Position numbers and translations under genes: made by a program. The notes under the pieces were generated by a model. That model was not told the origin of the DNA. It saw nothing but the letters and a program-made list of their open reading frames with translations, and made no database searches. A stretch of DNA of 64,000 nucleotides from the human T2T-CHM13v2.0 reference genome, Homo sapiens. Location: assembly GCF_009914755.1 (NCBI RefSeq), contig NC_060932.1. One strand, 5' to 3'. The stretch's first letter is position 1. Every line of letters starts with the position of its first letter. Positions 24,826 through 63,859 of this stretch are shown here, piece by piece.

Positions 24826-24858
24826 ACTGCTCTCTTTTTTACGTCAATGCATACATAT

Positions 24859-25238
24859 TGTATTAGTCCATTCTCATTGCTGCTAATAAAGACATACCTG
24901 AGACTGTGTAACTTATAACGGAAAGAGGTTTAATTGGCTCAAAGTTCTACAAGGCTGGAGAGACCTCAGAAAACTTACTATTGTGGTACAAGAGGAGGCA
25001 AGCATGTCCTTCTTCATATGGCCACAGCAAGGAGAAGTGCAGAGCAAAGATGGATGGAAAATTCCCCTCATAAGACCATCAGATATTGTAAGAACTCACT
25101 CAATATCACAAGAACAGCATGGAGGTAACTGCCCTCACGATTCAATTACCTCCCGTAGGGTCCCTCCCATGGCATGTGGGATTATGAGAACTGCAGTTCA
25201 AAATGGGATTTGGGAGGGGACACAGTCAAACCATATCA
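24859..25238 (-). mobile_element. MaLR solo LTR, THE1C/D-like
   Basis: TGTATTAGTCCATTCTCA...ATAAAGACATACCTGAGACTG...GGGACACAGTCAAACCATATCA. Confidence 0.9.
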
Positions 25239-47595: not shown

Positions 47596-48212
47596 TGGTT
47601 GGAATCTTCAGCTGATGGTACCTGGAACCTGTGCCATGTCTTCACTGCACCCCTCCAAGCACAGAGTGGGAGCTGGAGATGTGCTTGGGTACCAGGTAGC
47701 ACCACCAGGCAGGCTGGGGCAATGTCTGGACCAAGAGGAATGACTTTATGCTGTGTCACTTTCATTAATGTAAGTTAATAGGATATCATTTCATAATGAC
47801 TTGACTTTCTTACTTTGCAAATACTAATAGAACATGAAATTTGCTCAAGTTTCCCTAAAATGTGTGTCAATATCACCTGGGATTTGAAAATGAAATTCTT
47901 AATAGGTCTCCAGGTCAGCCAATGCCCAGCAGTCCAGGAAGCCCAGTCTGGCTAGCTTATGCTGTTGGCTGATGTTGAGAACATGAGATTTAGGGATCTG
48001 TAGACATGCTCTGAAGCTTCAGAGTCCACCCAGGATTAAGCAGGCAAGGAGAGAGGGTTTGATCCTAAAGGGTATGATGAAAGGAAACAGACAGTATATG
48101 GTAGCAGGAAGGCACTCCCGGGTTCAATAAGCAGTGACCCACAAAAAAGGTAGGTGATGGGATTCAGAGACAGTGATATGGAAATGTGAGAAGACAAACA
48201 GGTGACCATCAC

Positions 48213-48627
48213 TGTGTCAGTCCATTTTGCACTGCCATAAAGGGATACCTGAGGCTGAGTAATTTATAAAGATCTTTTATTTGTTTGGTTTATTTGGTTC
48301 ATAGTTCTGCAGGCTGTCCAAGAAGCATGGCACCAGCATCTGCTTCTGGTGAGGGTCTCAGGAAACTTTTACTTATGGTGGAAGGTGAAGGGGGAGCAGG
48401 CTTGTCATATGGCAAGAGAGACAAGAGGAGGTACCAGGCTCTTTTTAACATTCAGATCTTGGGGTAATTAATAGACTGAGAATTTACTCATTACTGTGAG
48501 GACAGCACCAAGCCATCCATGAGATCCACCCTCATAACTGAAACTCCTCCCACCAGGCCTCACCTCCAACACTGGAAATCACATTTCAACATGAGATTTG
48601 GAGGGGACAAACATCCAAACTATATCA
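48213..48627 (-). mobile_element. MaLR solo LTR, MSTB-like
   Basis: TGTGTCAGTCCATTTTGC...GCATGGCACCAGCATCTGCTTCTGGTGAGGG...GGGGACAAACATCCAAACTATATCA. Confidence 0.9.
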
Positions 48628-48667
48628 ACCATCAACTCCAAAGATTGGTAAAGAAAGCAAAGTGGGG

Positions 48668-48990
48668 GGCCAGGTGCAGTGGCTCACTCCTGTAATCCCA
48701 GCACTTTGGGAGGCCGAGGTGGGGGGATCACGAGGTCAGGAGATCGAGACCATCCTGGCTAACACAGTGAAACCCTGTCTCTACTAAAAATACAAAAAAT
48801 TAGCAGTGTGAAAATGGACTAATACAATGAAAGGAGATACAGGTTTCAGAGACTCTTCTGGGGAGAGAAAGGCTGTTTGGGGAGGGGAACGAGAATCTTG
48901 CAGTGAGCCGAGATTGCACCACTGCACCACTGCACTCCAGGCTGGGCAACAGAGCAAGACTCCGTCTCAAAAAAAAGAAAAAAAGAAAAA
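48668..48990 (+). mobile_element. AluY carrying a foreign 92-bp replacement in its right arm
   Basis: AluY left arm to ...AAAAAATTAGC, non-Alu sequence 48805-48896, then Alu resumes CTTGCAGTGAGCCGAG. TSD AAAGAAAGCAA(A/G)GTGG at 48650-48665 and 48991-49006. Confidence 0.95.
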
Positions 48991-49763
48991 AAAGAAAGCA
49001 AGGTGGAAACTCAGCCCAGAGGCAATGGAGTACTGACTGGGCAAATAATCCAGACAAAGCTCCAGTCCGGGTGCTGGAGCTCACATATACCAGTGGAGGA
49101 TTAGCCTTAGAAATCACAATAAAAAGCAGTCCTGAACCGAGGTAGAAGGTCTGAGCAATGCTGGCAGCAAGTCTACCTTGAAGCTGAATTCTCTTAATTG
49201 ACTCCAAAGGCAGGACAGTCCTGAATCTAAGTTGGGTGTTAAACTATAGGTAGGGCGCAGATGGCTCCTGAGGGTGGTCCTGTAGGCTCAGATTGAGGAT
49301 GAGGAGGGAAGTAGACACAAGAGCACTGTGCAAGGAAAAAGAGAACAAAGTGAACAACTGCTTGTTAAACATGAAGGTAGAATCCAGTGCAGTTCTTCTG
49401 TGGGCCATACTGACTCCCACATGGCTGGAGCCAGATTATCAAGAAAGCCTGACAAAGATGCCCTCCACGATGCCCTGCTGTGTGAAGGGTTACTGGAAGA
49501 TGCAGACTTTCTCTCCCTAAAGGGAGACACTACAAGTGTCAAGCCCCAGGGATGCTGCAGATATTGATTCCACAAGTAAGAATGAGGAGCTCTCATTTGG
49601 TCTGTTCTGATGTCAGCCAGGGCCAGGCTGACCCAAGAAGTACCTGCCACACAGGGGTAGAGGAGTCTGGCTGTATCTGATTGAACCTGCTGTCTTCCCA
49701 AAGAGCTCCCCAATCCGTGGTGGCCTTCTCAGCCAATATGGTGATGACTTCCTAATGAAGGTG

Positions 49764-51818
49764 TGTATTAGGGTTCTCTAGAGGGACAGAACTAATAGAA
49801 TATATGTATATATGACAGGGAGTTTATTAAGGAGAATTGACTCACATGATCACAAGGTAAAGTCCCACGAAAGGCCATCTGCATGCTGAGGAGCAAGGAG
49901 GACAGTGGTGGATCAGTATGAGTTCCAAAACCTCAAAAGTAGGGAAGCCAAGAGTACAGCTTTCAGTCTGTGGCTGAAGGACTGACAGCCCCTGGCAAAT
50001 CACTGGTGTAAGTCCAAGGGTCCAAAAGCTGAAGAACTTGGAGACTGATATTCAAGGGCAGGAAGCATCTAGCACAGGAGAAAGATGGAGGCCGGAAGAC
50101 TCAGCAAGTCTGTTTTTCCATCTTCTCCTGCCTGCTTTATGGTAGCTGCGCTGGCAGCTGATTAGATGGTGCCCACCAAGATTGAGGGTGAATCTGCCTC
50201 TCCCAGTCCACTGACTCAAATGTTAATTTCCTTTGGCAACACCCTCACAGACACACCAGGAATAATACTTTGCATCCTTCAATCCAATCAAGTTGACACT
50301 CAATATTAAGGATCACAAATCCACCCCTTGTCAACTTGAACCCACACACATCACCTGAAACCATACATAATCTTCAAATAAAGACAATAATGTCATAATT
50401 ATGCCTAACATAATACAGCTATCTTTCACACAACCAGAAGTGCACTAATTCTTAACCCAAATGCTGTTATAGAAAGTTAATAGCACTTAAATGCTGATAT
50501 GAAGTCAAGAAATCTTATGTCACATGATAAAGGAAAAATAAAAGAAATAAAATGAAGGTATTAGTACAATTGTATAATATACAAACATGTTCTTAACATA
50601 AGGAAGAAATACTCATGAAAATTACCGTCCTCATTTCTGCAACTGGTCAAGTGGTCATAGCTGGTTTTGATGACTACCTTCTTTCAACTACTCATTCTGT
50701 ATTTCCTTTGCCTTCAGCAAGCACCTCAGCAGGTTGTGGTTTTTAACCTGGTGGACGGACCCAAATCTTCATTCCTGAAGGTTGTGGGCCATTTGCAGTC
50801 CTGCCTGGATTGAGTTTTTGTAGTTTCCTGTTGACCTTAATAACAGGGCATGGGATTGATGTCCTAATGGATCTTTTGTGTTCCATGTGTACTCTTCCTT
50901 ACCTCCATTGTGGAGTAATAGGCTGATTTCCTCTTGATAGTCCAGGTCAGTCACCCCAGCCAACAAGGTAACATACTTCTTAGCCTGTTGACTTAGAGGT
51001 AGGAGGAGCCCAAAATGGCCAGGTGACTTCCAGTTTCATAGAATCATTTTTGTGTCTCCTGGTGGCAGCATTCCTTCCTCTGAACTAGGACCTCTAGGCC
51101 AGTGAAAGGTAATGTTGTGGAAACAGAAGGCAAGATTTTTGCTAGTGGGTCACTATGGGTGATGGTGAGTAGTGCCACCTTCCACTTCCACCCCTTGATT
51201 CCTGGGCCCGTTAATCCTGGCTATGGGAGAAACAGTACCATAATACTGGATACTGATTCAGAGCATACACAGCCTTCTGGAGAACTTTGCCCCACTACTG
51301 CAAAGTACTGTCACCTAGTTGGTGTTGTAATTGTGACTTCAAAAGGCCATTCCACTATTCTATCAGTCCAGCTGCTTCAGAATGGTGGGGAACGAGGTAA
51401 GACCAGTGAATTCCATGAGCATGATCCCACTGTCACACTCCTTTAGCCATAAAGTGAGTGCCTTGGTCAGAGGCAATGCTGTGTGGAATACCATGATGGT
51501 GGATAAGGCATTCTGTGAGTCCACAGATGGTAGTCTTGGCAGAAACAATGTGTACAGGATAGGCAAGCTCCTATCTGGAGTGTCTATTCTGGTGAGGACA
51601 AACTGCTGCCCTTTCCATGATGCAATATAATCAACCTGCCACAAAGTAGCTGGCCGATCACCCAGAGGAATGGTGCCATATCAAGGACTCATTGTTGGTC
51701 TCTGCTACTGGCCAATCAGGCACTCAGTGGTGGCTATAGCCAGATCAGCCTTGGTGAGTGGAAGTCCATTTTGCATCCTTCAATCCAATCAAGTCGACAC
51801 TCAATATTAACCATCACA
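49764..51818 (-). mobile_element. Internally deleted HERV-L provirus (MLT2A LTRs)
   Basis: Full 3' LTR 49764-50317 with adjacent polypurine tract (minus strand AAGGGGTGGA). Internal region 50318-51768. A 50-bp 5' LTR stub at 51769-51818. TSD AGGTG at 49759-49763 and 51819-51823. Confidence 0.93.
50769..51644 (-). pseudogene. Disrupted ERV-L integrase and dUTPase remnants
   Basis: ORF fragments WQVDYI...FVLTRIDT (integrase core-like) and LAGVTDLDYQEEISLLLHNGG (dUTPase motif-like), broken by frameshifts and stops. Confidence 0.8.
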
Positions 51819-51964
51819 AGGTGCTTACAATTAGGTTCTGATTGCAGGAGTAAGGACTGGATGAGAAACTCCTCCCCACACTCTCTAGTCCTGGCACCTC
51901 AAAGTTTCTAATGTCTCTTGGCTATGATCCAATAGCCCTTGTCCTCACCTGGCAGCTTATCTGC

Positions 51965-52215
51965 TCTAGCAACAGGCATGGTGGGCAAAACATGGGCTTT
52001 AGATTCAGACCCAGGTCCAAATGCCAGTGCTCCACCGACTAGTTGTAAACTCTTGGAGTAATATAACCTGTCTGAGCTTCACTATGTTATATAATGGGGA
52101 TAATAAAACCTATTTCATTGAGTTTTAATAAAGATTCAGTAATAATGACAACATTTATTGAGCACTTACTGTATTCCATGCACTGTGCAAGTGACTTACA
52201 TAAATTATCTAAATG
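51965..52215. mobile_element. MIR followed by an opposite-strand MIR/L2 tail
   Basis: GGGCTTTAGATTCAGACCCAGGTCCAAATGCCAG...ATAATGGGGATAATAA, then AACATTTATTGAGCACTTACT. Confidence 0.7.
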
Positions 52216-55200
52216 CAGCTTAGGCTTCATTTCAGTTCCTTAGTTTCCTTTGCCTGTTGGGCCATAAATTGGCACCTGGGCTCACCAGTTAATAGCTACA
52301 CAATTGCAGGTATTGTTTCCTTGAAGAAATGAACAGTCCCTAAAGGGCTGGTATGGCAAATCTGGTTCTCTTCAAGAAACCCAGGTATGATGTCAAGGAG
52401 AGGAAAATTATTTTTCTGAGTTTCAGAAATCTTCAGGAAATGCACTATGCCTTAAACATGGACCCTAATTCCTCATCCAGCCACACAAAGACCACTGTGA
52501 GCTTGTTTGGTTTGTCTTTTCATTCCTAGCTTCCACCAGTCTCCAGGAATGAGTATTCACTGCCTTATCCCATTTGTCACTCCATCCATATTGTTTACAA
52601 AGCCTGAAGGCCCTTCCCTTTCTCTATCTGGGAGTCTTTCCCAATGCTGAGGTCTTCCTTAATTCATGTGCTTTCATGGGGCCTGTTCCTGGCCAGAACC
52701 CTGTTAACTCCTTCCTCTCCTACTCTCTTGATTGATTTTAAGCTTGTGTTTTACTTCTTATCCAATTTGATCTTATCTCAGCCATTTGTGGATGAATCTG
52801 CCTCTCACAGTCAACCTTCATCTCATAGACAGAAGAAGTAGTGCCTTATTTATCCTTTTATCCTAACCCCACCCGTAAAAAAGGAACCTATCAGAGGTTA
52901 CAACACATTTTGTGCAGTTAGTTAAGATCAGTCCGCACGCCTCCTGACAGGTCATAGAAACTAGAGATGGAGGAAGGGAGTACTTTGTAAGGCCCCAGGA
53001 CTGGAGGGACAGGGACTGGGGAGCATTTGCAGGTCCACTGCTTCTTCTGGGAGATAAAGGCCAAAGACGCTCTCTCTCAGGTTGGCTTTGGGCAATCAAT
53101 GGAGTGGACTCATCATTGGGAGGCTCCGCCCTCCTTTCTGTCCATGTTTCTGACTCAAGGGCCCCTGCCACCACCTGATTCTAAAGCACCTCTTCCCACA
53201 AGCTTTCCAACTGCACAATTTACTGAAGACTGATCTGTTCTGAGTTGTGTGTCCTCAGGCATTATTTCATACAGAACTGGATCTCATAAATGAGGCCAGC
53301 CAGGTGGCATCTACTGTCTAGATGGAGCACTCTAGACATGTAACACTCCTGCAAGAAACACCTTGGAGGGACCTGGGCTCCCTCTCATAGTGTCCCCGCG
53401 TCTCCAAGCTCTCCTCAAGGGGTCACAGTAACTTCCACATTGGAAGAACAAGAGGGGACAGTCCCTGTATTCGGATGGCAGAGCCTCCCTACATGTTCAG
53501 GACAGGGCTTTGTCCTGGTGTGACACAGATTGTTCTGTCCCCCAGTGTCCCAGAAAGCAGCTGGGGCACAGTCCTGTGCTCTCAGACAGACAGGCACTCA
53601 GCCTGTGGCTTACTCCTTCCTCTCTCGGCTGGTGCACCGGCCCTCTCCCATGGGTTGGGTGGAACTACCATTTCAGCTGCCATGACTGTTTTATAGAAGA
53701 GAAGAAAGTTGGTTATGAATCCCACCCACTTGTCTTCAGACAGTGACAGCCTAAACATTACCCCCTAGGTAAAAAGAGCACGTCTGCTTTGCAAACTGAG
53801 CCTCAAGAAAAGTCCCTTAGCCACAGTCTTCCCATACTTCCATGCAGATGTCTGTCCCTAAGCTTCTATTATAGGGACATTCTGGAGCTGGCTCTCGAGT
53901 CACTGCAACCAAACGGCAACATCAGGAAAGTGAGTAGGGTGTATATTTCCAACCTGAGACAGCCTTGGTCGGGGCATATAACAGGCTTGCCTGAAAATGG
54001 GGACAAGGTGCTAAGGAGGGATGAAATGTGCAAAGAAAGGGAAACTTCAACAAACGGGACAAACTCAGTCCCTCGCAGCTTGCCTGGACCTGTCTTGGCA
54101 TGCACAGTGTCTTTCTGGGGCCACCCAGCAGGGCTGGCCAGCCTGCAGCCAAAGCCGGCAGCGTGCTCCCTGAGGTCCCATTTCAGTCTGTCTTTCCCTC
54201 TGCCCATCCTCCTCTTCCCCTGGGCAGCTCGTTTGCTTGCAACAGCCTCTCATTTCCCTGTGTTGGTTTAGTCTCAGGCCCAGACCCTGTTCAATATTTG
54301 TTTCCCCGGCTCTGCTATTTGCTCTCATTTCCATATGTTTAACATACATATTAGCTACCTCCTATGGTCCCATAGTTGTCACTGGCTCTTCCGGCCTCAG
54401 TCTGAGTCCCAGGGCCACTGAGCACCTGTCATCCCAGAAGGATGGTGCTGGGTTGCTGTTGCCTAAGCACTGGTGCCACCCTACCCACTCAGGGGACCCA
54501 AGTCTGGACAGCAGGACCTCAGAACTCCCTCTCACCTTTGCTTACCTCATCCCAAGTCACCCTTTCTTCCTTCTGGCAATGTAATATTGATTGATATTCT
54601 AGAACTATAATTTCTTCCTTAATGAGAAGTCAAGGTAAGAATACAATTAAAAGTTCTTAAAATGGACTCCAAAGCTTTTTCAGATTATCCCTTCCCACTG
54701 CCATCATCTCCTGCTGAACTTATTTTATCTTCCTCGCTCCACATTGGGCAACCTGCCTTCATCATAAGCTTCTTGATGAATCCTAGTGATCATCTAGCCC
54801 AACCATGGAGCTATGGCTTAAACGCCCCTTCAGTTATCCACCCCACATTCCTTCCATGTGTCCGGCACTGGGCTAGGTACCAGAGATTCAGAAATGACAG
54901 GGATAAATAGGAAGAAGCTGGAAGGACCTCACATCTAGTGTGGGAGGTGGAGACCCAACTATAATGCTGTGTGACAAATTTAAGATAGAGTTGGAAAGGA
55001 GGACCGTAACTCAGCCAAAGGTATCAGCAAAGTCTTCCTACAATCCTTTCATTATTGATTATTCCACATTTAGAGGAACTCACTACCTCCCAAAGTGCAT
55101 CCTTTCCCTTTCTGAGTTCTTGTGACACACATACTTCTTTCTGTGAGTACGTCCCTGTTGCCTGAAATCAGCAATCTAAATTTTTTTTTTTTTTAGTGAA

Positions 55201-55899
55201 AAGCTGCGTTATCCTTGAATGAACCCTGTCCCTCTGCCTCAATGTTTCCCCAGCTGTAGAAAGAAAAGGATAAAGCTCAGTGATTTCTAGAACTCCCCAA
55301 TCTTGTTGGTTCTACAGCAGATTGGCTCTCAGGGAGGCCTCTCCCCCATCCTCACTGCATCTTCTAAAAAGATGCCATGGGTCACCTTCCCCTTGCTTCT
55401 CCATAGCCTCTGGCCTCTTCTCCATGAGCCCACCTGCTCACTCTGCTAGCTGGCTTCTTTAAAATCCTGCTCATCATCTTATCCTGATTCCTTACTGCCT
55501 CCAGGAGAAATCCACACATCTTGGCTTCAGATACATTCAAGATATTTTATAATTGGCCCCAACATACCTTCTTCTTCCTGCTCTCTGCCACCATGGAACT
55601 GCTCCTGCTGTAATGCCTGTCTCACAGTTCCCCAGACATAAGAGTCCATTTCAACTCTGCACCCCTGGATATGATTCCTTGTCAACTTGAAAATCTGCTC
55701 CCTGTCTTAATCAATTAGAAAACTCCTATGTACACTCAAAGCCTGGTTCACAGCCTAGGGGTAATAAATCTATTCTTCCTCTGCCCACCTGAAGCACACT
55801 GTTCATGCTTTCATAACGCCATCCTACAAGTCGGTCCTCAGTCCTACTCATGTCCTGGAATTTCTGCTCTTGTCTGGTCCTCTTTACACTGAATGAAGA

Positions 55900-56783
55900 T
55901 AACCTATGTAGCCAGTAGGATAGAGCTGTGAGAATGTGTGACTTCCAGGACTAGGTTATAAAATACATTGCAACTTCTACCTTTCCCTTCATGGCTCACT
56001 CTGGGGAATCCAGCAGCCATGGAACCTGCAAATAGCCTGTGGGGAAGACCAAGACCAAGGGGACAAAGCTGAGGCCTCCTACCAACACTCAGGTATTAGT
56101 CTATTTTTGCACCACTATAAAAGAATACCTGAGACTGTGTAATTTGTGTGTGTGTGTGTGTGTGTATAAAAAGAGGTTTAATTGGCTCATGGTTCTGCAG
56201 GCTGTACACAACGCATAGTGACTTCTGCTTCTGGGGAGACCTCAGGAAGTTTCCAATCATGATGGAAGGCAAAGGGGGAGCAAGGCATCTCACCTGCAGG
56301 GAGCAGGAGCAAGAGAGAGTGAGCAGGGAGATGCTGTACACTTTTAAACAATCAGATCTCATGAGAACTCACTCACTGTCACGAGAACAGCACCAAAAGG
56401 ATGATGCTAAACAATTCATGAAAAATCCACCCCCATGATCCAACCACCTACCACTAGGCACCACCTCCAACAGTGGGGACTACAATTCAACATGAGGGTT
56501 GGTGAGGACACAGATCCAAACCATATTAACCACATCAACTTGCCGGCATGCAAGTGAGCCATTGTCTCAAGTGCATCCTTCAGCCACAGTCAAACCTTCA
56601 GATGACTGTGTTCCCAGTCAACAACTTGACTGCAACCCATGAGAGACCCTGAGCCAGAGCCACCAAGCTAAGTGGTTCCTATTTTGGATCCACAGAAACT
56701 GTGAGAGATAATAAATGCCCATTGGTGTTTTAAGCCATTAGGTTGTGGGGCACTTTGTTACAAGGCATTAGATAACATGAACA
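55900..56783 (+). mobile_element. MLT1F-like LTR split by an MST LTR
   Basis: TGTGACTTCCAGGACTAGGTTATAAA, CAGTCAAACCTTCAGATGACTG and GAAACTGTGAGAGATAATAAATG...TTTAAGCCATTA. Confidence 0.75.
56092..56528 (-). mobile_element. MSTA/MSTB-like LTR containing a (TG)11 microsatellite
   Basis: GTATTAGTC...AGAATACCTGAGACTG...GAGGTTTAATTGGCTCATGGTTCTGCAGGCTGTAC...CACAGATCCAAACCATATTA; TG run near 56145-56166. Confidence 0.9.
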
Positions 56784-59279
56784 ACAGCTTTTACTCTATT
56801 GCATTAAAGTGTATCTTTTTACAGGCTTCTCTGTACAATCCATCAGCATCTTTGAAAACATGGGCATATGTCTTTCTCCTCCAAATCTATAGTGTCTAGC
56901 AAACTGCATGATGCAAAAAAAGTAGGCTATAAATAAATCCTTGCCTAACTTATTAATTAGTAATTAATTTTTTAAAGCCCTAAAGATCTGGTTTATATTT
57001 CTCCTTGTTCAACTACTTGATTCTTTGCTGTAGCTTCCTTTAGGCATCAATCTGTCCCATACCCCCACCTCCATACTCTACAGGGCTCTACATCACATTT
57101 GCAGTTTGCAAAAGACCTTTTACCTGCCTGTTCATTCCTACAATGACATTCTGAGGTTGGCAGAGCAGGTATGATTAAGCATATTTTACATAAAAAAGGT
57201 TAAGTTTCTTGTCCCAGTTTGTCAAAGAGTCCCAGTTTTCCTAGACTTTCCCAATTTTCCTAGGAGCTCAGTTCAGTGTCCCTTATACCACCCTTTCTTG
57301 GATAGGTGAGCTGGATATTGTAGATACTTTAGCTGCTTCTCTCTAAAGACCCATCACTGGGGGCTTCTGAAGGAGCCCAGCTTCCTATTTCAAGATAAGA
57401 ATGCAGACAATCATTCACACATATAAGACTTTCCTGCCTGGCTACCCTTCTCTCTTTCCGAGGCTGGAAGCTCAGCCACCCTGGGCCACCCTGGACCACC
57501 CTGGGCTGTGATGACACAGAGTCTGGGTATAGGGTGTGCCTTGGTTTGGTGTTCTATCTCCTTATTAGTACAAGCTAATGCCACTTACCCCTGTTAGCTG
57601 CACACACACACTGCAGATTTCCTGCAAGAGCCATGGTGGTGTTTGCTTGGAGAGATTGTCTGAAAAATAACCTCTTTCCCTAGCATCCAGAAATAGCTTT
57701 TGATGTTATCTTAAAAAAAACAATTTTGGGACCAAAATTTAGAATAAAGCTGAGTGCCAGTAAATGCCTACATGACTGCTTCCAAGGGAAATCAGAAAGG
57801 ATTTCTAGAGACGCTAAAGCTGTATATTATTGTAAGCCCGTGGAGCTGAAAAGCTCCTGGACTGAGTGTCAGAAGACCTTTCTTTTCGAATTCCAACTCT
57901 CATCACAGTAGCAGCACTGAACCTCTTTGCGGTACAGTGCTTCTGTCTATAGGAACACAGTCATCCTCCTTTCTGTATTAAAATCATGAGACCAGGGAGA
58001 AGGTGAATAAACATCATACTCATCATGTACCAAACACCTAGGATGTGCCACATGCTATATTAGGCACTTTGCAGCTCTTAACTCATTTAAGTTTCACAGC
58101 AATGCTATGAAGTAGGCATTTTCTCTACTTAAGTAACAACTAAACCAAAACTTAGAATAGTTAAGTAGGATGCTCACCAGGCAGTAAATCAAGGGTAGAA
58201 CTGGGATGCAAACTTCAGCTTTTTCCACTTTGCTGTGATGACAAGTAAGAGAATACATCTTAACATGCTCTAAACATTCCTCTTTAAAAAAATCAAATGA
58301 CATGAAAACAAAGACGAAAGAACCCAGCATTTGGAGATAGGCCCAGTGATACATGCCACTCTCCTTGGTTCTCCTTTTCTGACTTCCCAGGGCAAAGACT
58401 ACACTCCGAAAGCATGGATCCTGGACAGCCTATGTTCCCGAGCTTCTGCAGATGAGGGTGAGGGAAGGGTGGACACCCCACAGCTCCTGCAGACTGACAA
58501 AAGCTCTCTCTTACCTGCCAGTCTAGATTCCACCTCATCCCTACCCTGTGTAAGGAAGAACAGGGTTTCGTCGTCTCTCTGGGAAGCTGCAGATGGCTCA
58601 TTTTTGCATTCTTCCCATTTCTTAAAAGTACTGCACATGAATTTTTAAAAGTAAAATTGATTTAAATTGATTCTATTTAAATTTTCTTTTATTTTAGACG
58701 TTTCACAATGCCTCCTAGGATAACTGCAGCCTTTCTGTGTGTTCAAAAACAGACTTTGGAGCCTATATTGAACTCACATACAGCTCCTTCCAGGTCATAA
58801 AGGCAGCTCTTTTCAGCTCTAGAATTCCATATTCAGTCAAGTCCTGGTTCTCATCTTGTGCACTTTGTGAATGGCACAGAGGCCCACAATTGCTTAATGC
58901 TCAGGACAAAACCCAGAACTTGATATTTTTCTTGCCCAACATTTTTCTTCCAACCCAGATTCCTGAGAGCTCATTTGTACCTCTATTTGTCTGCCCCAGA
59001 GTCCCTAAAATACAGCAACCTCGCTTTAATTCTATTGCCATTCAACTGCCTGACTTTGAGCACATGACTGAGCCTTCTCTGTGACTCAGTTTCCTCTTCA
59101 TGATCACTGCTCTATGTCCTTCCCGCAGCTGCTGTGACAATGATGTTAAAGATGCCCCACAGTGGCCACACCACCCTTGTCCCTTTTGGTCACTGTGCTG
59201 AGACAGGCACTTGGGATTAGACTCTTTTTCATCCCTCAAAAGGTAACCCTGGGGAGGAACTCACTTGATCACTCTAATT

Positions 59280-59600
59280 TTCCATGGCTAGTTACACATA
59301 CCAGCCTCCAGCCCCACCCTTCACTTGGCTAACTCTAGCTCTTCATATCCTGGTCCTCTGCAGAAGTCACTTTCTCCAGGAAACTTCCCTGATCGCATGC
59401 AGTCTTGGTTAGGTGCCCTTCTTAAGGAGTCTCACCGCATCCCATCATAACCATCACCACGTGGTGTAATTGTTTCTCTGTCTGTCTCATCCACCAACCT
59501 CTAAGCTCTGTGAGCGTATCTCACTCTCCTTGTTCATCATTGTATATCCAGAGCCTAACAGAGTGGCTGGCACATAGTAGGTATGAAAAAGCACAGAATA
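59280..59600 (+). mobile_element. L2 3' fragment
   Basis: TCACTTTCTCCAGGAAACTTCCCTGA, CTAAGCTCTGTGAG and TGGCTGGCACATAGTAGGT. Confidence 0.7.
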
Positions 59601-62600
59601 AGCCTGTCTGTCCTGCCCCTTCATGGAGCTGCTATGGGGAGTGAGTCTTTCAGCAAGCCACTTCATGTCTCCTGGCTTCAATTTCCTCCTCTTTAAAAAG
59701 CATGGTTTGAACTAGCTGTTCTCTATCATTCTTTCCTGCACAATAATCTGTAATTCTGTGATTCTAAATAAGGTAATGCATTGAAAGAACATGGAAAACT
59801 GTAGCACTTTAACCAACATAAGGATTGTATTTAACGTTACTATTATTATTCCACATGGTTTTCCCGATCTGTGCATCCTGGCAGCTCATGCCTCAGAATA
59901 AATGCAGCCTTCCTCCCGCAGCCAAAAGATTGGCCTTGTCAAAGACCGCCCCATAGGTCAACAGCAGTATTGCAACAGGGCTATGGATGGGTCTGACCCT
60001 CCTTTTCTTTCTTCACAACAGCCTTGGGAAATGTGTGAGGATCCTTTCATTCCTGCCATCCGAATATTGCCTGGGCTGAGTGGATGGGACCTTGTTTTTG
60101 CAGATAGTCTGTGATGACCTTAACTGAATTTTCTCATCTGGTCATTTGGTTTTGAGGATTTTTTTTCTTTCTTAAAAAAGCAAGAATCAAAAAATCAATA
60201 ATGTAAAAAAAAAAATGAAACAAAAAATAAATAAAGGAGAAGAAGACAGTCAGTGCGCCTCAAGTTTAAATTAGAATACAACGGTTTAATGCTCCCAAAG
60301 ACCAGACTATCGTTTCTTACCAGATTTCCCCTTGCATGAGCAATTGTGAAGCCAACCTGTCCAGAGGAATGAGTTGTCATTCCGCCAGATGAGCAAACAC
60401 CATCGATTTTAATGTGTGTGATAGAAACAAACAGCACTGAGCTCTCCCCCTCCACACCCTCCGCTGGACACTATTCAGTGGAAACAGACGCCCTGGTTTT
60501 GTTAAGTGTCCAGGCAGAAGCACCAGGAAGGGAGTGGCAATGGAAGGTTCAGGACTGGATGCAGGGAGATTCTTCCAAACAGACTGGGCCCCAAGAGCCT
60601 CCCAGTTCAGAAAAAACACTGAGTCATGAAACATGGACCCCCCAAAGGTGGGAAGGACTAGAGAAGGGGATCACAGTTCCTTGCCCGGACTGGGGAGGGA
60701 GGAGCCAACACATCACCTCTTAGAGGTCTTCAGACAGCTGCCACTGGGCCAGGGCAGGCACAGAAGACAATAAATGGGGCCAGGAGCAATGGCAAAACCT
60801 GCTAATGGGCCTTGTCATCAATGCCCAACCTAAGCTGCCTCCAAACCATGAGAACCGACTCAAAGAGAGTTTGCCGTTGAGGTTTTGCTGGTGATAATCT
60901 GTTATCAGAGGCAAGAAGCCTACTAAGCAGAGAGGAAAAGAGGAGGGCCCCTGGCAACCTAAGAGCTTGCCCCACAGCCCCCTAAAAAGATTCTATGGCC
61001 TACTGTCACTTGCAATGTCTGCTGACCAAACACTCAGGAGTTTTCTCTTCAAAGATCATGACTTGTGGTCTATGGCCTTCTGTGTTTATCTGGTTACAGA
61101 GTAGGCATCAAAGAAATATTTATACAATTCACTGACTGATGTTCTGTACCAACAGAGGAGAAGACAGCTCCTCAGATGGAATAAACCCACTGCATTAATG
61201 CTGAAAGCAATGAGCAGTTAACATATGTCAAGATATCAGCTTCTTAGGAGGGCTATGTGAGACCAAACAAAATCAAGACAGAGAATATTGGACACTGATA
61301 GTCAGGTAAGTGTTCCTGGCACTTCACAAATTAGTTTACTATCCTTATACCCAGGAGAGAGAGTCCCCAGTCTGGAAGCTGAGATCTGAGGTCTAACTTT
61401 TGTTATTAACAACACAAAATGATGACACACCCCAATGTTTCAGTAATAATAACCCTTGGTTGTTCAGCTCAACTTCTACATTGGTAGTCTACAGGAGGGT
61501 AATCATGAGATAAGGAGAACTCCAAGAATTCAGGATGGGGAATGCCATCTTCCCCTGTGAGCTAAACCTAGCAAAACCCACACACAGTGGAAGTGATTTG
61601 GCAACTGAAAATGTCAGTGCAGAGATTATCTGTAATTGGGTGACTTGAGGATTTATAAACACCCAAAACTCCAGTCAAGGTGATTTGGGAGCAAACTCAG
61701 AGAGATAATATTGGAGTGAGATTGTAATTTGGTAAGCAGAACCCTAATCAATCGTATTGTGCCTTCCTAGGAGAAAGTCATCTTCCAAACCTGCCCCTCC
61801 AGGGTTCTGTGAGTGTCTGTTCATCTGACAGGCAGGCACCTGCCATAAAGATACATGCTTCAGTCTGACAAAGCCAGTTGACAATGGAGTCATAGAATTC
61901 TTTTCTCTGGTTCTGAATCTATGATCCTCAAACATCCCTCTGATAAGTTTTGGACCCATATGGCTTGCGTGCAGAGAAAGAATAGACTGGACAGGCCAGA
62001 GCAACTTACATACAGTCCATCTCATAGTACCATTCCAACATATGCCTCTTGATGCTTTTGTTAATGTAAACGAGTGGATCCGAGTTCAATTGACAGGACA
62101 GATCTGAGGTCTAGGACACTACACTGAGGTCCAGGACCCAGAAAAGGGGGAATTTGTCTAGAAAACTAGCAGTCAGATGCCTGAGACCCTGCATTTACAG
62201 ACCACTCTCCCAGGGAAAAGTAGGTATTGAATTTTTCTTTAGAAAGGTGGCATTCTGGCATTTAATCCCCACATGTATGACATAGATTTTTTTATTACCC
62301 CTTCTGTTTATCAATAAGGAAGCTAAGATCCAATGGCTCAAGGTCACAGAGCATGTGGTATTTTGACTTTACACAATCCTGAGGCTCCCTCGGCAACATA
62401 ACAAGAATCACGGAAGATTTCCAAAGATCCCCCCCTCCGAGTCTGAAAAGGCTAGGCATGTGCTCCCCTCAATCCTATGTAAAAGGGCTGGCTGGCATGG
62501 GGTCAGATTGTCTTTGTAAAGACAGAGATCAAAAGGAGGTAGTTTTGATCCCACCCCACTGCACCTCCCTATTCCTTTTGCTGGCTGCAGTAGCCTCCGG

Positions 62601-63227
62601 CTTCCTTTCTGGGTCGTTCATAAGACCCTTGGCATTGGGTTCCTCTTGCTGAGGACTAAGAGGCATGGCCACGAGAGAAATCAGTCTGCTCCACCTGGGG
62701 AGACTCCCATAAACATCCATTTTCACCTACAGACCCTGAGCCCCGTGTGTACAGAACAGTACAATACTGTGGTCCCTAGGCTGCAGTGGAGGGTGGACAG
62801 AAAGGAGGAAGGCCATCCAGTGGCTCCCAGGCACTCTGTGGTCTAAGAAGCAAATCTGCCCTTCTCCTTCTCCTTGCCACTAGCTGAGGGGCACCGCTGG
62901 GGAATCTCCCAGGGAGATACAACCACAGAGTCTCATCCTTCCCCATTCCCTGTAGCTCTTCTCTTGCGTAATTAGCCCATAGGGATTGTAGCCACAGTCC
63001 AGGCCTTCTGAGGGCCAGAGGACTCCATCTCAGTGCCTGTGGAGGCAACGTAGGCATAGGATTTTACACAGTAGAATAGACACAGTTGTGCCTTCCAACT
63101 TCTCCCTCTTGATCATGGTCCTCTCCAGACCCTATTCTGTTCTTTATTCAGACCAAGATTCTCGTTCCCCTCCCCAAACAGCCTTTCTCTCCCAAGAAGA
63201 GTCTCTGAAACCTGTATCTCCTCTCAT

Positions 63228-63588
63228 TGTATTAGTCCATTTTCACACTGCTGATAAAGACAATTGCAAGTCTGGATACTTTATAAAGAAAAAGAGGTTT
63301 AATGTACTCACATTTCCACGTGGCTGGGGAGGCCTCACAATCATGGTGGAAGGTGAAAGGTACTTCTTACACGGCGGCTGCAAGACAGAATGAGAACTAA
63401 GTGAAAGAGGCTTCCCCTTATAAAACCATCAAATCTCGTGAGACTTATTCAAAACCAGGAGAACAGTATGGAGGAAAGCACCCTCATGATTCAATTAGCC
63501 CCCACCGGGTCCCTCCCACAACATGTGGGAATTATGGGAGCTACAATTCAAGGAGATGTTTGGATGGGCACACAGCCAAGCCATGTAA
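63228..63588 (-). mobile_element. MaLR solo LTR, THE1B/C-like
   Basis: TGTATTAGTCCATTTTCACACTGCTGATAAAGAC...GGGGAGGCCTCACAATCATGGTGGAAGG...GGGTCCCTCCCACAACATGTGGGAATTATGGGAG. Confidence 0.92.
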
Positions 63589-63859
63589 TCCATCTCAGAA
63601 ACCTTATCCAGTCTATCACCTCCCCTCCCTCCTTCCCTCTTGGGCAGTTTTTCTCTTTTAAATGTCTCTCACCAGCTCCCATTTCTTAAAGCCCCTGGTA
63701 GATCCTCAAATCAAAACTCCAACCAATATTCCCACTCCCTGCGCTCCTCCTTTCCTCCCATCCTGGCCTCAGCATTGCTCTACCACCTCTTGCAGCAATT
63801 ATGCTTGACCTGCGGGAGAAATTACCCAAGATTTACTTATTTATTTGTGAAAAATGAAG

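What the first reader, a model, noticed from the sequence alone, without database searches (positions are those of the whole stretch)
48802..48900. Templated 99-bp inverted insertion inside an AluY, with its donor 14.3 kb away in the same window
Seen in sequence: 48802-48900 is the reverse complement of 63154-63252 with only 2 mismatches in 99 bp. The donor spans the terminus of the THE1 LTR plus its unique flank, so this is a copy of that specific locus and not a shared repeat. Against the AluY consensus, about 80 bp (CGGGCGTGG...GGCGGAG) are missing and 92 foreign bp sit in their place. Both junctions have microhomology shared by Alu and donor: AGC on the left, CTTG on the right. The Alu TSDs are still present. 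Inference: a double template switch during break repair or replication (Pol-theta-type templated insertion or MMBIR/FoSTeS) copied a nearby segment. This would record a physical contact between two sites 14 kb apart. It also leaves a ~98%-identical inverted repeat pair bracketing the HERV-L region.
Basis: partly seen in the sequence, partly recalled or inferred. Interest (0 to 1): 0.85.

Follow-up and report, generated by a model that had tools for sequence, protein, structure and literature searches.

The report
Copied 92-base patch inside an Alu
An old Alu repeat on human chromosome 8 had 80 of its bases replaced by an inverted 92-base copy of a single-copy site 14 kb away, a clean but ordinary scar of error-prone DNA repair or replication.

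Summary
Window 48802-48900 is the reverse complement of 63154-63252 with 97 of 99 bases matching. In the whole assembly the 99-mer occurs at these two places only.

The donor is 25 nt of the end of a roughly 357-bp high-copy LTR-type repeat (63228-63584, minus strand) plus 74 nt of its flank. That flank is single-copy apart from the insert.

The host Alu keeps its 16-nt target-site duplications. It lacks exactly the 80 nt that two of three aligned in-window Alus carry at this point, and has 92 foreign nt instead. Acceptor and donor share AGC at the left joint and CTTG at the right joint. The chance of both is about 8e-4.

Best reading: one non-reciprocal copying event in which a broken or stalled 3' end primed by microhomology on nearby DNA and then returned. 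This is the FoSTeS/MMBIR or synthesis-dependent end-joining type. The enzyme cannot be named from sequence. An RNA-templated patch is not excluded.

This kind of scar is well documented in human germline variation (PMC8082928, PMC2621351, PMC5110952). It is a new instance of a known kind, and interest is low.

The parts
48650..48665 (+). Left target-site duplication of the host Alu
   Evidence: 16 nt matching 48991-49006 with 1 mismatch.
48666..48804 (+). Host Alu, left arm and A-rich linker, ending in TTAGC
   Evidence: Matches 10 other in-window copies of the same roughly 300-bp repeat. Those matches stop at 48801-48811 (alignment A1). The name Alu is recalled.
48802..48804 (+). Left joint microhomology AGC, shared by Alu and donor
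   Evidence: Alu copies read ...TTAGC and the donor reads ...TCAGC before the copied stretch.
48805..48896 (+). 92 nt of foreign sequence that replaces 80 nt of Alu
   Evidence: Count taken from alignment A1. 90 of 92 bases are identical to the donor.
48897..48900 (+). Right joint microhomology CTTG, shared by Alu and donor
   Evidence: In-window Alus read CTTG or CTTA at this point, and the donor reads CTTG and then diverges.
48897..48990 (+). Host Alu, remainder of the right arm and A-rich tail
   Evidence: Matches in-window Alus from 48898 and from 48921 onward. The tail runs up to the right target-site duplication.
48915..48930 (+). 8-nt tandem duplication in the Alu, 15 nt to the right of the right joint
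   Evidence: Found by regex. Absent from the 3 aligned in-window Alus. A link to the event is only a guess.
48991..49006 (+). Right target-site duplication of the host Alu
63154..63252 (-). Donor of the copied stretch, still in place
63228..63584 (-). Solo LTR-type high-copy repeat whose last 25 nt belong to the donor
   Evidence: 5832 first-look candidates in the genome; 39 scored non-self copies at 83-86% identity. 21 of 29 fetched copies stop matching exactly at 63228, and all 29 stop within 63218-63230. The name THE1/MaLR is recalled.
62700..63227 (-). Single-copy flank of the LTR; its first 74 nt (63154-63227) belong to the donor
   Evidence: The genome search finds only the flank itself and the insert; 2 first-look candidates, both scored.

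Best explanation
After the Alu had integrated, a break or a collapsed replication fork inside its right arm left a 3' DNA end. That end paired through 3-4 nt of microhomology with single-stranded DNA 14.25 kb away on the same chromosome, on the opposite strand. About 92 nt were synthesised there, across the boundary between a solo LTR and its unique flank. The end then let go and paired back through a second microhomology 80 nt further along the Alu. The result is a non-reciprocal deletion-insertion (80 nt out, 92 nt in, inverted) with the donor left intact. This is a FoSTeS/MMBIR-type double template switch, or equivalently synthesis-dependent microhomology-mediated end joining. Shown: the copy, its direction from donor to acceptor, the deletion, the microhomologies, and the uniqueness and nearness of the donor. 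Inferred: that the template was DNA, that it was a single event, and which polymerase acted.
For: 1. The match is locus-specific. The 99-mer has 2 of 2 genome places, and its 74-nt flank part likewise. The same search tool detects LTR copies at 83-86% identity, so a repeated flank would have been seen.
2. The direction of copying is clear. At 63 kb the 25 nt continue into a whole LTR. At 48.8 kb they are cut off inside an Alu.
3. It was one Alu. The target-site duplications bracket both Alu parts, both parts keep order and orientation, and exactly 80 nt are missing.
4. There is microhomology at both joints. The chance of at least 3 nt and at least 4 nt together is about 8e-4.
5. The donor is retained, so this was copying and not cut-and-paste.
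6. The donor lies in cis. A randomly placed donor would fall within 14.25 kb with probability about 9e-6. RNA-derived patches described in print showed no positional preference (PMC5110952, parts 1-2 read).
7. The kind is documented. 172 of 2292 germline deletions were classed as FoSTeS/MMBIR with inserted sequence, and 33 of 73 inserts of at least 30 bp mapped to the reference (PMC8082928, passages). The MMBIR model allows switches in inverted orientation followed by a second switch (PMC2621351, passage).
8. No Alu lies near the donor, so Alu-Alu recombination or conversion cannot have carried the stretch over.
Against: Nothing in the sequence separates a DNA template from an RNA template. 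The insert lies in the same sense as the Alu and as the LTR, which is what a read-through LTR transcript would give. There is no outgroup genome and no second human haplotype here, so an intact-Alu state has not been seen, and the order 'Alu first, patch later' is inferred. The two mismatches give only a loose date: point estimates of 10-20 Myr, with 95% ranges of 1.2-36 Myr at the faster recalled substitution rate and 2.4-73 Myr at the slower one. The mismatches could also be copying errors made during the event.
Confidence: 0.75

Rival explanations
1. RNA-templated origin. Either the LINE-1 reverse transcriptase, while copying the Alu RNA at integration, jumped to a nearby nascent transcript and back. 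Or a later break in the Alu was patched with reverse-transcribed local RNA, in the manner of a class 2 templated sequence insertion.
For: The insert has the sense orientation of both the Alu and the LTR, as a read-through transcript from the LTR would require. Microhomology at joints is also reported for RNA-derived patches (PMC5110952). The divergence of 2 in 99 does not exclude an age equal to that of the Alu: P(2 or fewer mismatches) is 0.43 at 30 Myr with the slower rate.
Against: No gene or transcript is annotated in the window (hub annotation). Described RNA-derived patches come from all over the genome without positional preference, whereas this donor is 14 kb away in cis (chance about 9e-6). 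Two precise jumps that land back in the same Alu RNA are needed. At the faster rate, P(2 or fewer mismatches) at 30 Myr is 0.065.
Confidence: 0.1
2. Capture of a free DNA fragment of about 95 nt, for example a replication or resection by-product from a sister chromatid or homologue, ligated into a gapped break by end joining.
For: It would also give an insert without a poly-A tail or target-site duplication of its own, and it leaves the donor intact on the recovered chromosome.
Against: Microhomology of 3 and 4 nt at both joints is unlikely for simple ligation (about 8e-4). Nothing in this model predicts a donor in cis at 14 kb.
Confidence: 0.08
3. Assembly artefact, that is, a chimeric join in the assembly.
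For: Nothing from the calls supports it. It is listed only because reads could not be inspected.
Against: The copy differs from the donor at 2 of 99 positions. A mis-join of reads from the donor would be identical. Both joints lie in microhomology, and the Alu resumes in register and in the right orientation.
Confidence: 0.02
4. A by-product of an inversion of 48901-63153 made by staggered breaks, or the remnant of a larger inverted duplication that was later trimmed.
For: The two copies are inverted and bracket a 14.25-kb segment.
Against: The two Alu parts on either side of the insert are in the same orientation and order, and they share one pair of target-site duplications. The segment to the right of the insert has therefore not been flipped relative to the left Alu part. 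Trimming would need extra events that happen to end in microhomology.
Confidence: 0.02

Closest known systems
Templated insertions at deletion or rearrangement junctions ascribed to FoSTeS/MMBIR (Hastings et al. 2009, PMC2621351; Gu et al. 2016, PMC5120786; Fujimoto et al. 2021, PMC8082928)
   Same: A copy of another locus sits at a deletion junction, with 2-5 nt microhomologies, either orientation allowed and the donor retained. Reported insert sizes run from 7 bp to 13 kb (Table 1 of PMC5120786).
   Different: Here the event is tiny and simple: one 80-nt deletion and one insert. It lies inside a repeat in a gene-free region and is old rather than a patient or population variant. Dependence on replication is not shown.
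Class 2 templated sequence insertion polymorphisms (Onozawa and Aplan 2016, PMC5110952)
   Same: The insert has no target-site duplication or poly-A of its own. There is a deletion and microhomology at the joints, the donor is intact, and the size falls in the reported range (experimental inserts 73-414 bp).
   Different: Those inserts come from distant loci, often other chromosomes, and are enriched in transcribed sequence and ascribed to RNA. Here the donor is 14 kb away in cis in a window with no annotated gene. Polymorphism could not be tested.
Polymerase-theta end joining with templated inserts (Schimmel et al. 2019; seen only as a reference-list entry, its content recalled)
   Same: Microhomology-primed synthesis on a template, release, then re-annealing.
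   Different: As I recall, these inserts are mostly under about 30 nt and are copied from within tens to hundreds of bases of the break. Here it is 92 nt from 14 kb away.
Short-range template switches in human and great-ape genomes (Loytynoja and Goldman 2017, PMC5453318; Walker et al. 2021, PMC7954356; listings and abstract starts only)
   Same: An inverted copy replaces the local sequence through two switches.
   Different: Those events copy from the immediate neighbourhood. This one reaches 14 kb.

Membership tests
FoSTeS/MMBIR-type templated insertion at a deletion junction | The inserted bases match another genomic locus | tested here: met
   97 of 99 identical to 63154-63252. These are the only 2 places in the assembly.
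FoSTeS/MMBIR-type templated insertion at a deletion junction | The donor is retained (copying, not excision) | tested here: met
   The donor is contiguous with the rest of its LTR, whose copies end at 63228.
FoSTeS/MMBIR-type templated insertion at a deletion junction | Microhomology of a few nt at each joint | tested here: met
   AGC and CTTG. Joint chance about 8e-4.
FoSTeS/MMBIR-type templated insertion at a deletion junction | Loss of acceptor sequence at the same site | tested here: met
   80 nt of Alu are missing, judged against 2 of 3 in-window Alus.
FoSTeS/MMBIR-type templated insertion at a deletion junction | Arises during replication or break-induced replication | not testable with these tools
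   Sequence alone cannot show this.
Polymerase-theta templated insert | Short insert copied from close to the break (criterion recalled) | tested here: not met
   92 nt copied from 14253 nt away.
Class 2 templated sequence insertion (PMC5110952) | No target-site duplication, poly-A signal or poly-A tract of the insert; microdeletion and microhomology at the joints | tested here: met
   The joints read Alu-AGC-insert and insert-CTTG-Alu. The A-rich stretch to the left is the Alu's own linker, present in all 3 aligned Alus.
Class 2 templated sequence insertion (PMC5110952) | Donor in a distant region, RNA-derived | tested here: not met
   The donor is 14 kb away on the same chromosome. An RNA origin is not testable here, and no gene is annotated in the window.
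Class 2 templated sequence insertion (PMC5110952) | Polymorphic among people | not testable with these tools
   Only one human assembly is held.
Class 1 templated sequence insertion / LINE-1-mediated retrocopy | Own target-site duplication and poly-A tail of the inserted piece | tested here: not met
   Neither is present at either joint.

The most novel reading that the evidence does not exclude
The patch was made from RNA. A read-through transcript started in the solo LTR 14 kb away was reverse-transcribed into the Alu, either by two template jumps of the LINE-1 enzyme during Alu integration or as a patch on a later break. That would show that reverse transcriptase in the germline samples nascent RNA from the immediate chromosomal neighbourhood.
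Probability: 0.1. Interest if true: 0.5.

Novelty: new member of a known kind. Interest (0 to 1): 0.2.

Why it matters
It is a tidy, fully resolved natural example of a mid-sized templated insertion. Both joints, the deleted acceptor bases and the exact donor can all be read, because the acceptor is a repeat whose intact form is known. Such cases can calibrate software that looks for templated insertions in complete genomes. This one should also serve as a shared derived marker for dating in primates. It has no evident functional consequence: the region has no annotated gene. By my recollection of the lengths needed for homologous recombination, the 99-nt inverted pair at 98% identity is too short to drive recurrent inversion.

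Tried and rejected
1. Shared-repeat explanation: rejected. The LTR part alone is not specific: 1 of 29 other copies matches the 25-mer exactly and 3 of 29 match with one mismatch. The 74-nt flank, however, is single-copy.
2. The 'flank' as the internal part of a full-length element: rejected. The 527 nt next to the LTR gave 2 first-look candidates against 5832 for the LTR with the same tool.
3. Alu-Alu exchange: rejected. None of the 10 other in-window Alu copies lies between 49001 and 64000.
4. A paralogous copy of the acceptor locus with an intact Alu: looked for and not found. The 1301-nt query matched only itself end to end; the 45 other matches are dispersed copies of an older roughly 415-bp repeat at 48210-48630 or of Alu parts.
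5. Inverted Alu pair as the cause of the break: the nearest other Alu is about 9 kb away.
6. 'HERV-L' between the arms: 18 of the 31 open frames of at least 90 aa gave no Pfam family at E up to 0.01.
8. Dating: too few mismatches to place the event before or after the human-chimpanzee split.

Full report
**Observation**

The stretch 48802-48900 on the plus strand is the reverse complement of 63154-63252.
- The repeat finder reports a single inverted pair in 40000-64000: 48799-48900 and 63154-63255, 102 nt, 97% complementary, arms 14253 nt apart.
- blastn gives 99 nt at 97.98% identity without gaps, E 6e-46.
- The two differences are at 48831 and 48860.
- In a self-comparison of the whole window only 3 pairs reach 93% identity over 40 nt, and this one is far the strongest.

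The match cannot be chance.

**Is it a shared repeat?**

No. The window's own assembly (3.117 Gb, 24 contigs) could be searched.
- The 99-mer has two places, the insert and the donor. Both first-look candidates were scored.
- The 73 nt 63154-63226, all but one base of the flank-derived part, also has two places.
- The 527 nt 62700-63226 beside the donor match only themselves and the insert.
- The 421 nt 63200-63620 gave 5832 first-look candidates. Of these, 40 were scored: the locus itself and 39 other copies at 83-86% identity.

The tool warns that counts are lower bounds and that very common words are skipped. It plainly detects copies of about 85% identity, however, so a repeated flank of similar age would have shown up.

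The repeat is about 357 nt long (63228-63584, minus strand). Of the 39 other copies, 28 stop matching at query position 393, which is window 63228. In my own blastn against the 29 fetched copies, 21 end exactly at 63228 and all 29 end within 63218-63230.

The donor is therefore the last 25 nt of a solo LTR-type repeat plus 74 nt of single-copy flank. The 25-nt part alone is not specific: 1 of 29 other copies matches it exactly. The flank is what ties the insert to this locus. No tool here names repeats.

**The acceptor**

The sequence around the insert is one copy of a roughly 300-nt repeat that has 10 other copies in the window, none of them between 49001 and 64000. I call it Alu from recall.

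I aligned it with the three most similar in-window copies.
- It matches them up to TTAGC (48804) and again from CTTG (48897).
- Between those points two comparison copies have 80 nt. The third has 64, through a deletion of its own.
- This copy has 92 nt, and 90 of them are identical to the donor.
- A 16-nt direct repeat with one mismatch (48650-48665 and 48991-49006) brackets the whole element.

So one Alu integrated here, and its interior was changed afterwards or during integration.

The donor reads AGC immediately before the copied 92 nt and CTTG at their end, and so does the Alu. The joints therefore lie in 3 and 4 nt of microhomology. For random joints the chance of at least 3 nt and at least 4 nt together is about 8e-4.

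The insert has no poly-A tract and no duplication of its own. The A-rich run to its left is the Alu's own linker, present in all aligned copies.

**Direction and nature of the event**

At 63 kb the 25 nt continue into a complete LTR. At 48.8 kb they are cut off inside an Alu. The copy therefore went from 63 kb to 48.8 kb. The donor is intact, so the event was duplicative.

The two Alu parts keep their order and orientation within one pair of target-site duplications. This rules out an inversion of the 14-kb segment as the source of the inverted pair.

A donor placed at random in the genome would fall this close with probability about 9e-6. The mechanism must therefore favour nearby DNA, or something tethered to it.

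**Mechanism**

The most economical account runs as follows.
1. A break or collapsed fork arose in the Alu.
2. The 3' end annealed by microhomology to exposed single-stranded DNA 14 kb away, on the opposite strand.
3. About 92 nt were synthesised there.
4. The end was released and annealed by a second microhomology 80 nt further along the Alu.

This is the pattern described for FoSTeS/MMBIR. The passages I read report junction microhomology of 2-5 nt and segments in either orientation, and the model holds that a switch in inverted orientation needs a second switch (PMC2621351). The same pattern is expected of synthesis-dependent microhomology-mediated end joining.

Templated insertions from 7 bp to 13 kb are tabulated for patient rearrangements (PMC5120786, Table 1 and discussion passages). 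In long-read genomes of 11 people, 172 of 2292 germline deletions were classed as FoSTeS/MMBIR because of inserted sequence, and 33 of 73 inserts of at least 30 bp mapped back to the reference (PMC8082928, passages). That paper's supplementary tables, which would give donor distances, were not opened.

As I recall the literature, its inserts are shorter and copied from close to the break. I saw that review only as a reference entry.

**Rivals**

*RNA template (about 0.1).* This cannot be excluded.
- The insert lies in the sense orientation of both the Alu and the LTR, as a read-through transcript from the LTR would give.
- Class 2 templated sequence insertions, ascribed to reverse-transcribed RNA, share the joint features (PMC5110952, parts 1 and 2 of 4 read).
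- Against it: those inserts come from all over the genome without positional preference, no gene is annotated in this window (hub annotation), and the integration-time version needs two jumps that return to the same Alu RNA.

*Capture of a free fragment (about 0.08).* This fits neither the double microhomology nor the cis donor.

*Assembly error (about 0.02).* This fits badly with two mismatches between copy and donor.

**Age**

Two differences in 99 sites give point estimates of 10-20 Myr with recalled substitution rates of 1.0e-9 and 0.5e-9 per site per year. The 95% ranges are 1.2-36 Myr at the faster rate and 2.4-73 Myr at the slower one. An origin after the human-chimpanzee split is not excluded: P(2 or more mismatches) is 0.14-0.37 at 6.5 Myr. 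The mismatches may also be copying errors. A very recent origin without copying errors is unlikely: P is at most 0.002 at 0.3 Myr.

- 'HERV-L region': 18 of the 31 open frames of at least 90 aa between the arms gave no Pfam family. The name is unverified.
- 'Records a physical contact': true in the trivial sense that any template switch needs contact. Sites 14 kb apart touch often in any chromatin fibre.
- 'Inverted repeat pair': real, but short (99 nt).

**Verdict**

The thing is an individual, probably old, example of a well-described class of repair or replication scar. Novelty: new member of a known kind. Interest: 0.2.

Noticed in passing
window 48915-48930: An 8-nt tandem duplication in the Alu right arm, 15 nt to the right of the right joint. 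It is absent from the three aligned in-window Alus. It could be a slip made during the same error-prone synthesis or an unrelated later slip.
   Followed up: partly
window 24857-25234: A second copy of the same LTR-type repeat family, 75-76% identical to the donor LTR in two pieces. Its end also matches 48799-48828 at 87%.
   Followed up: no
window 48210-48630: The Alu sits about 20 nt beyond the end of an older high-copy repeat of about 415 nt, with dozens of scored genomic copies at 75-79% identity. The family was not named.
   Followed up: no
window 50269-50318 and 51770-51819: A 50-nt direct repeat at 94% identity, 1.5 kb apart, inside the segment bracketed by the inverted pair. Unexplained.
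   Followed up: no
window 49000-63150: 18 of the 31 open frames of at least 90 aa gave no Pfam family at E up to 0.01.
   Followed up: partly
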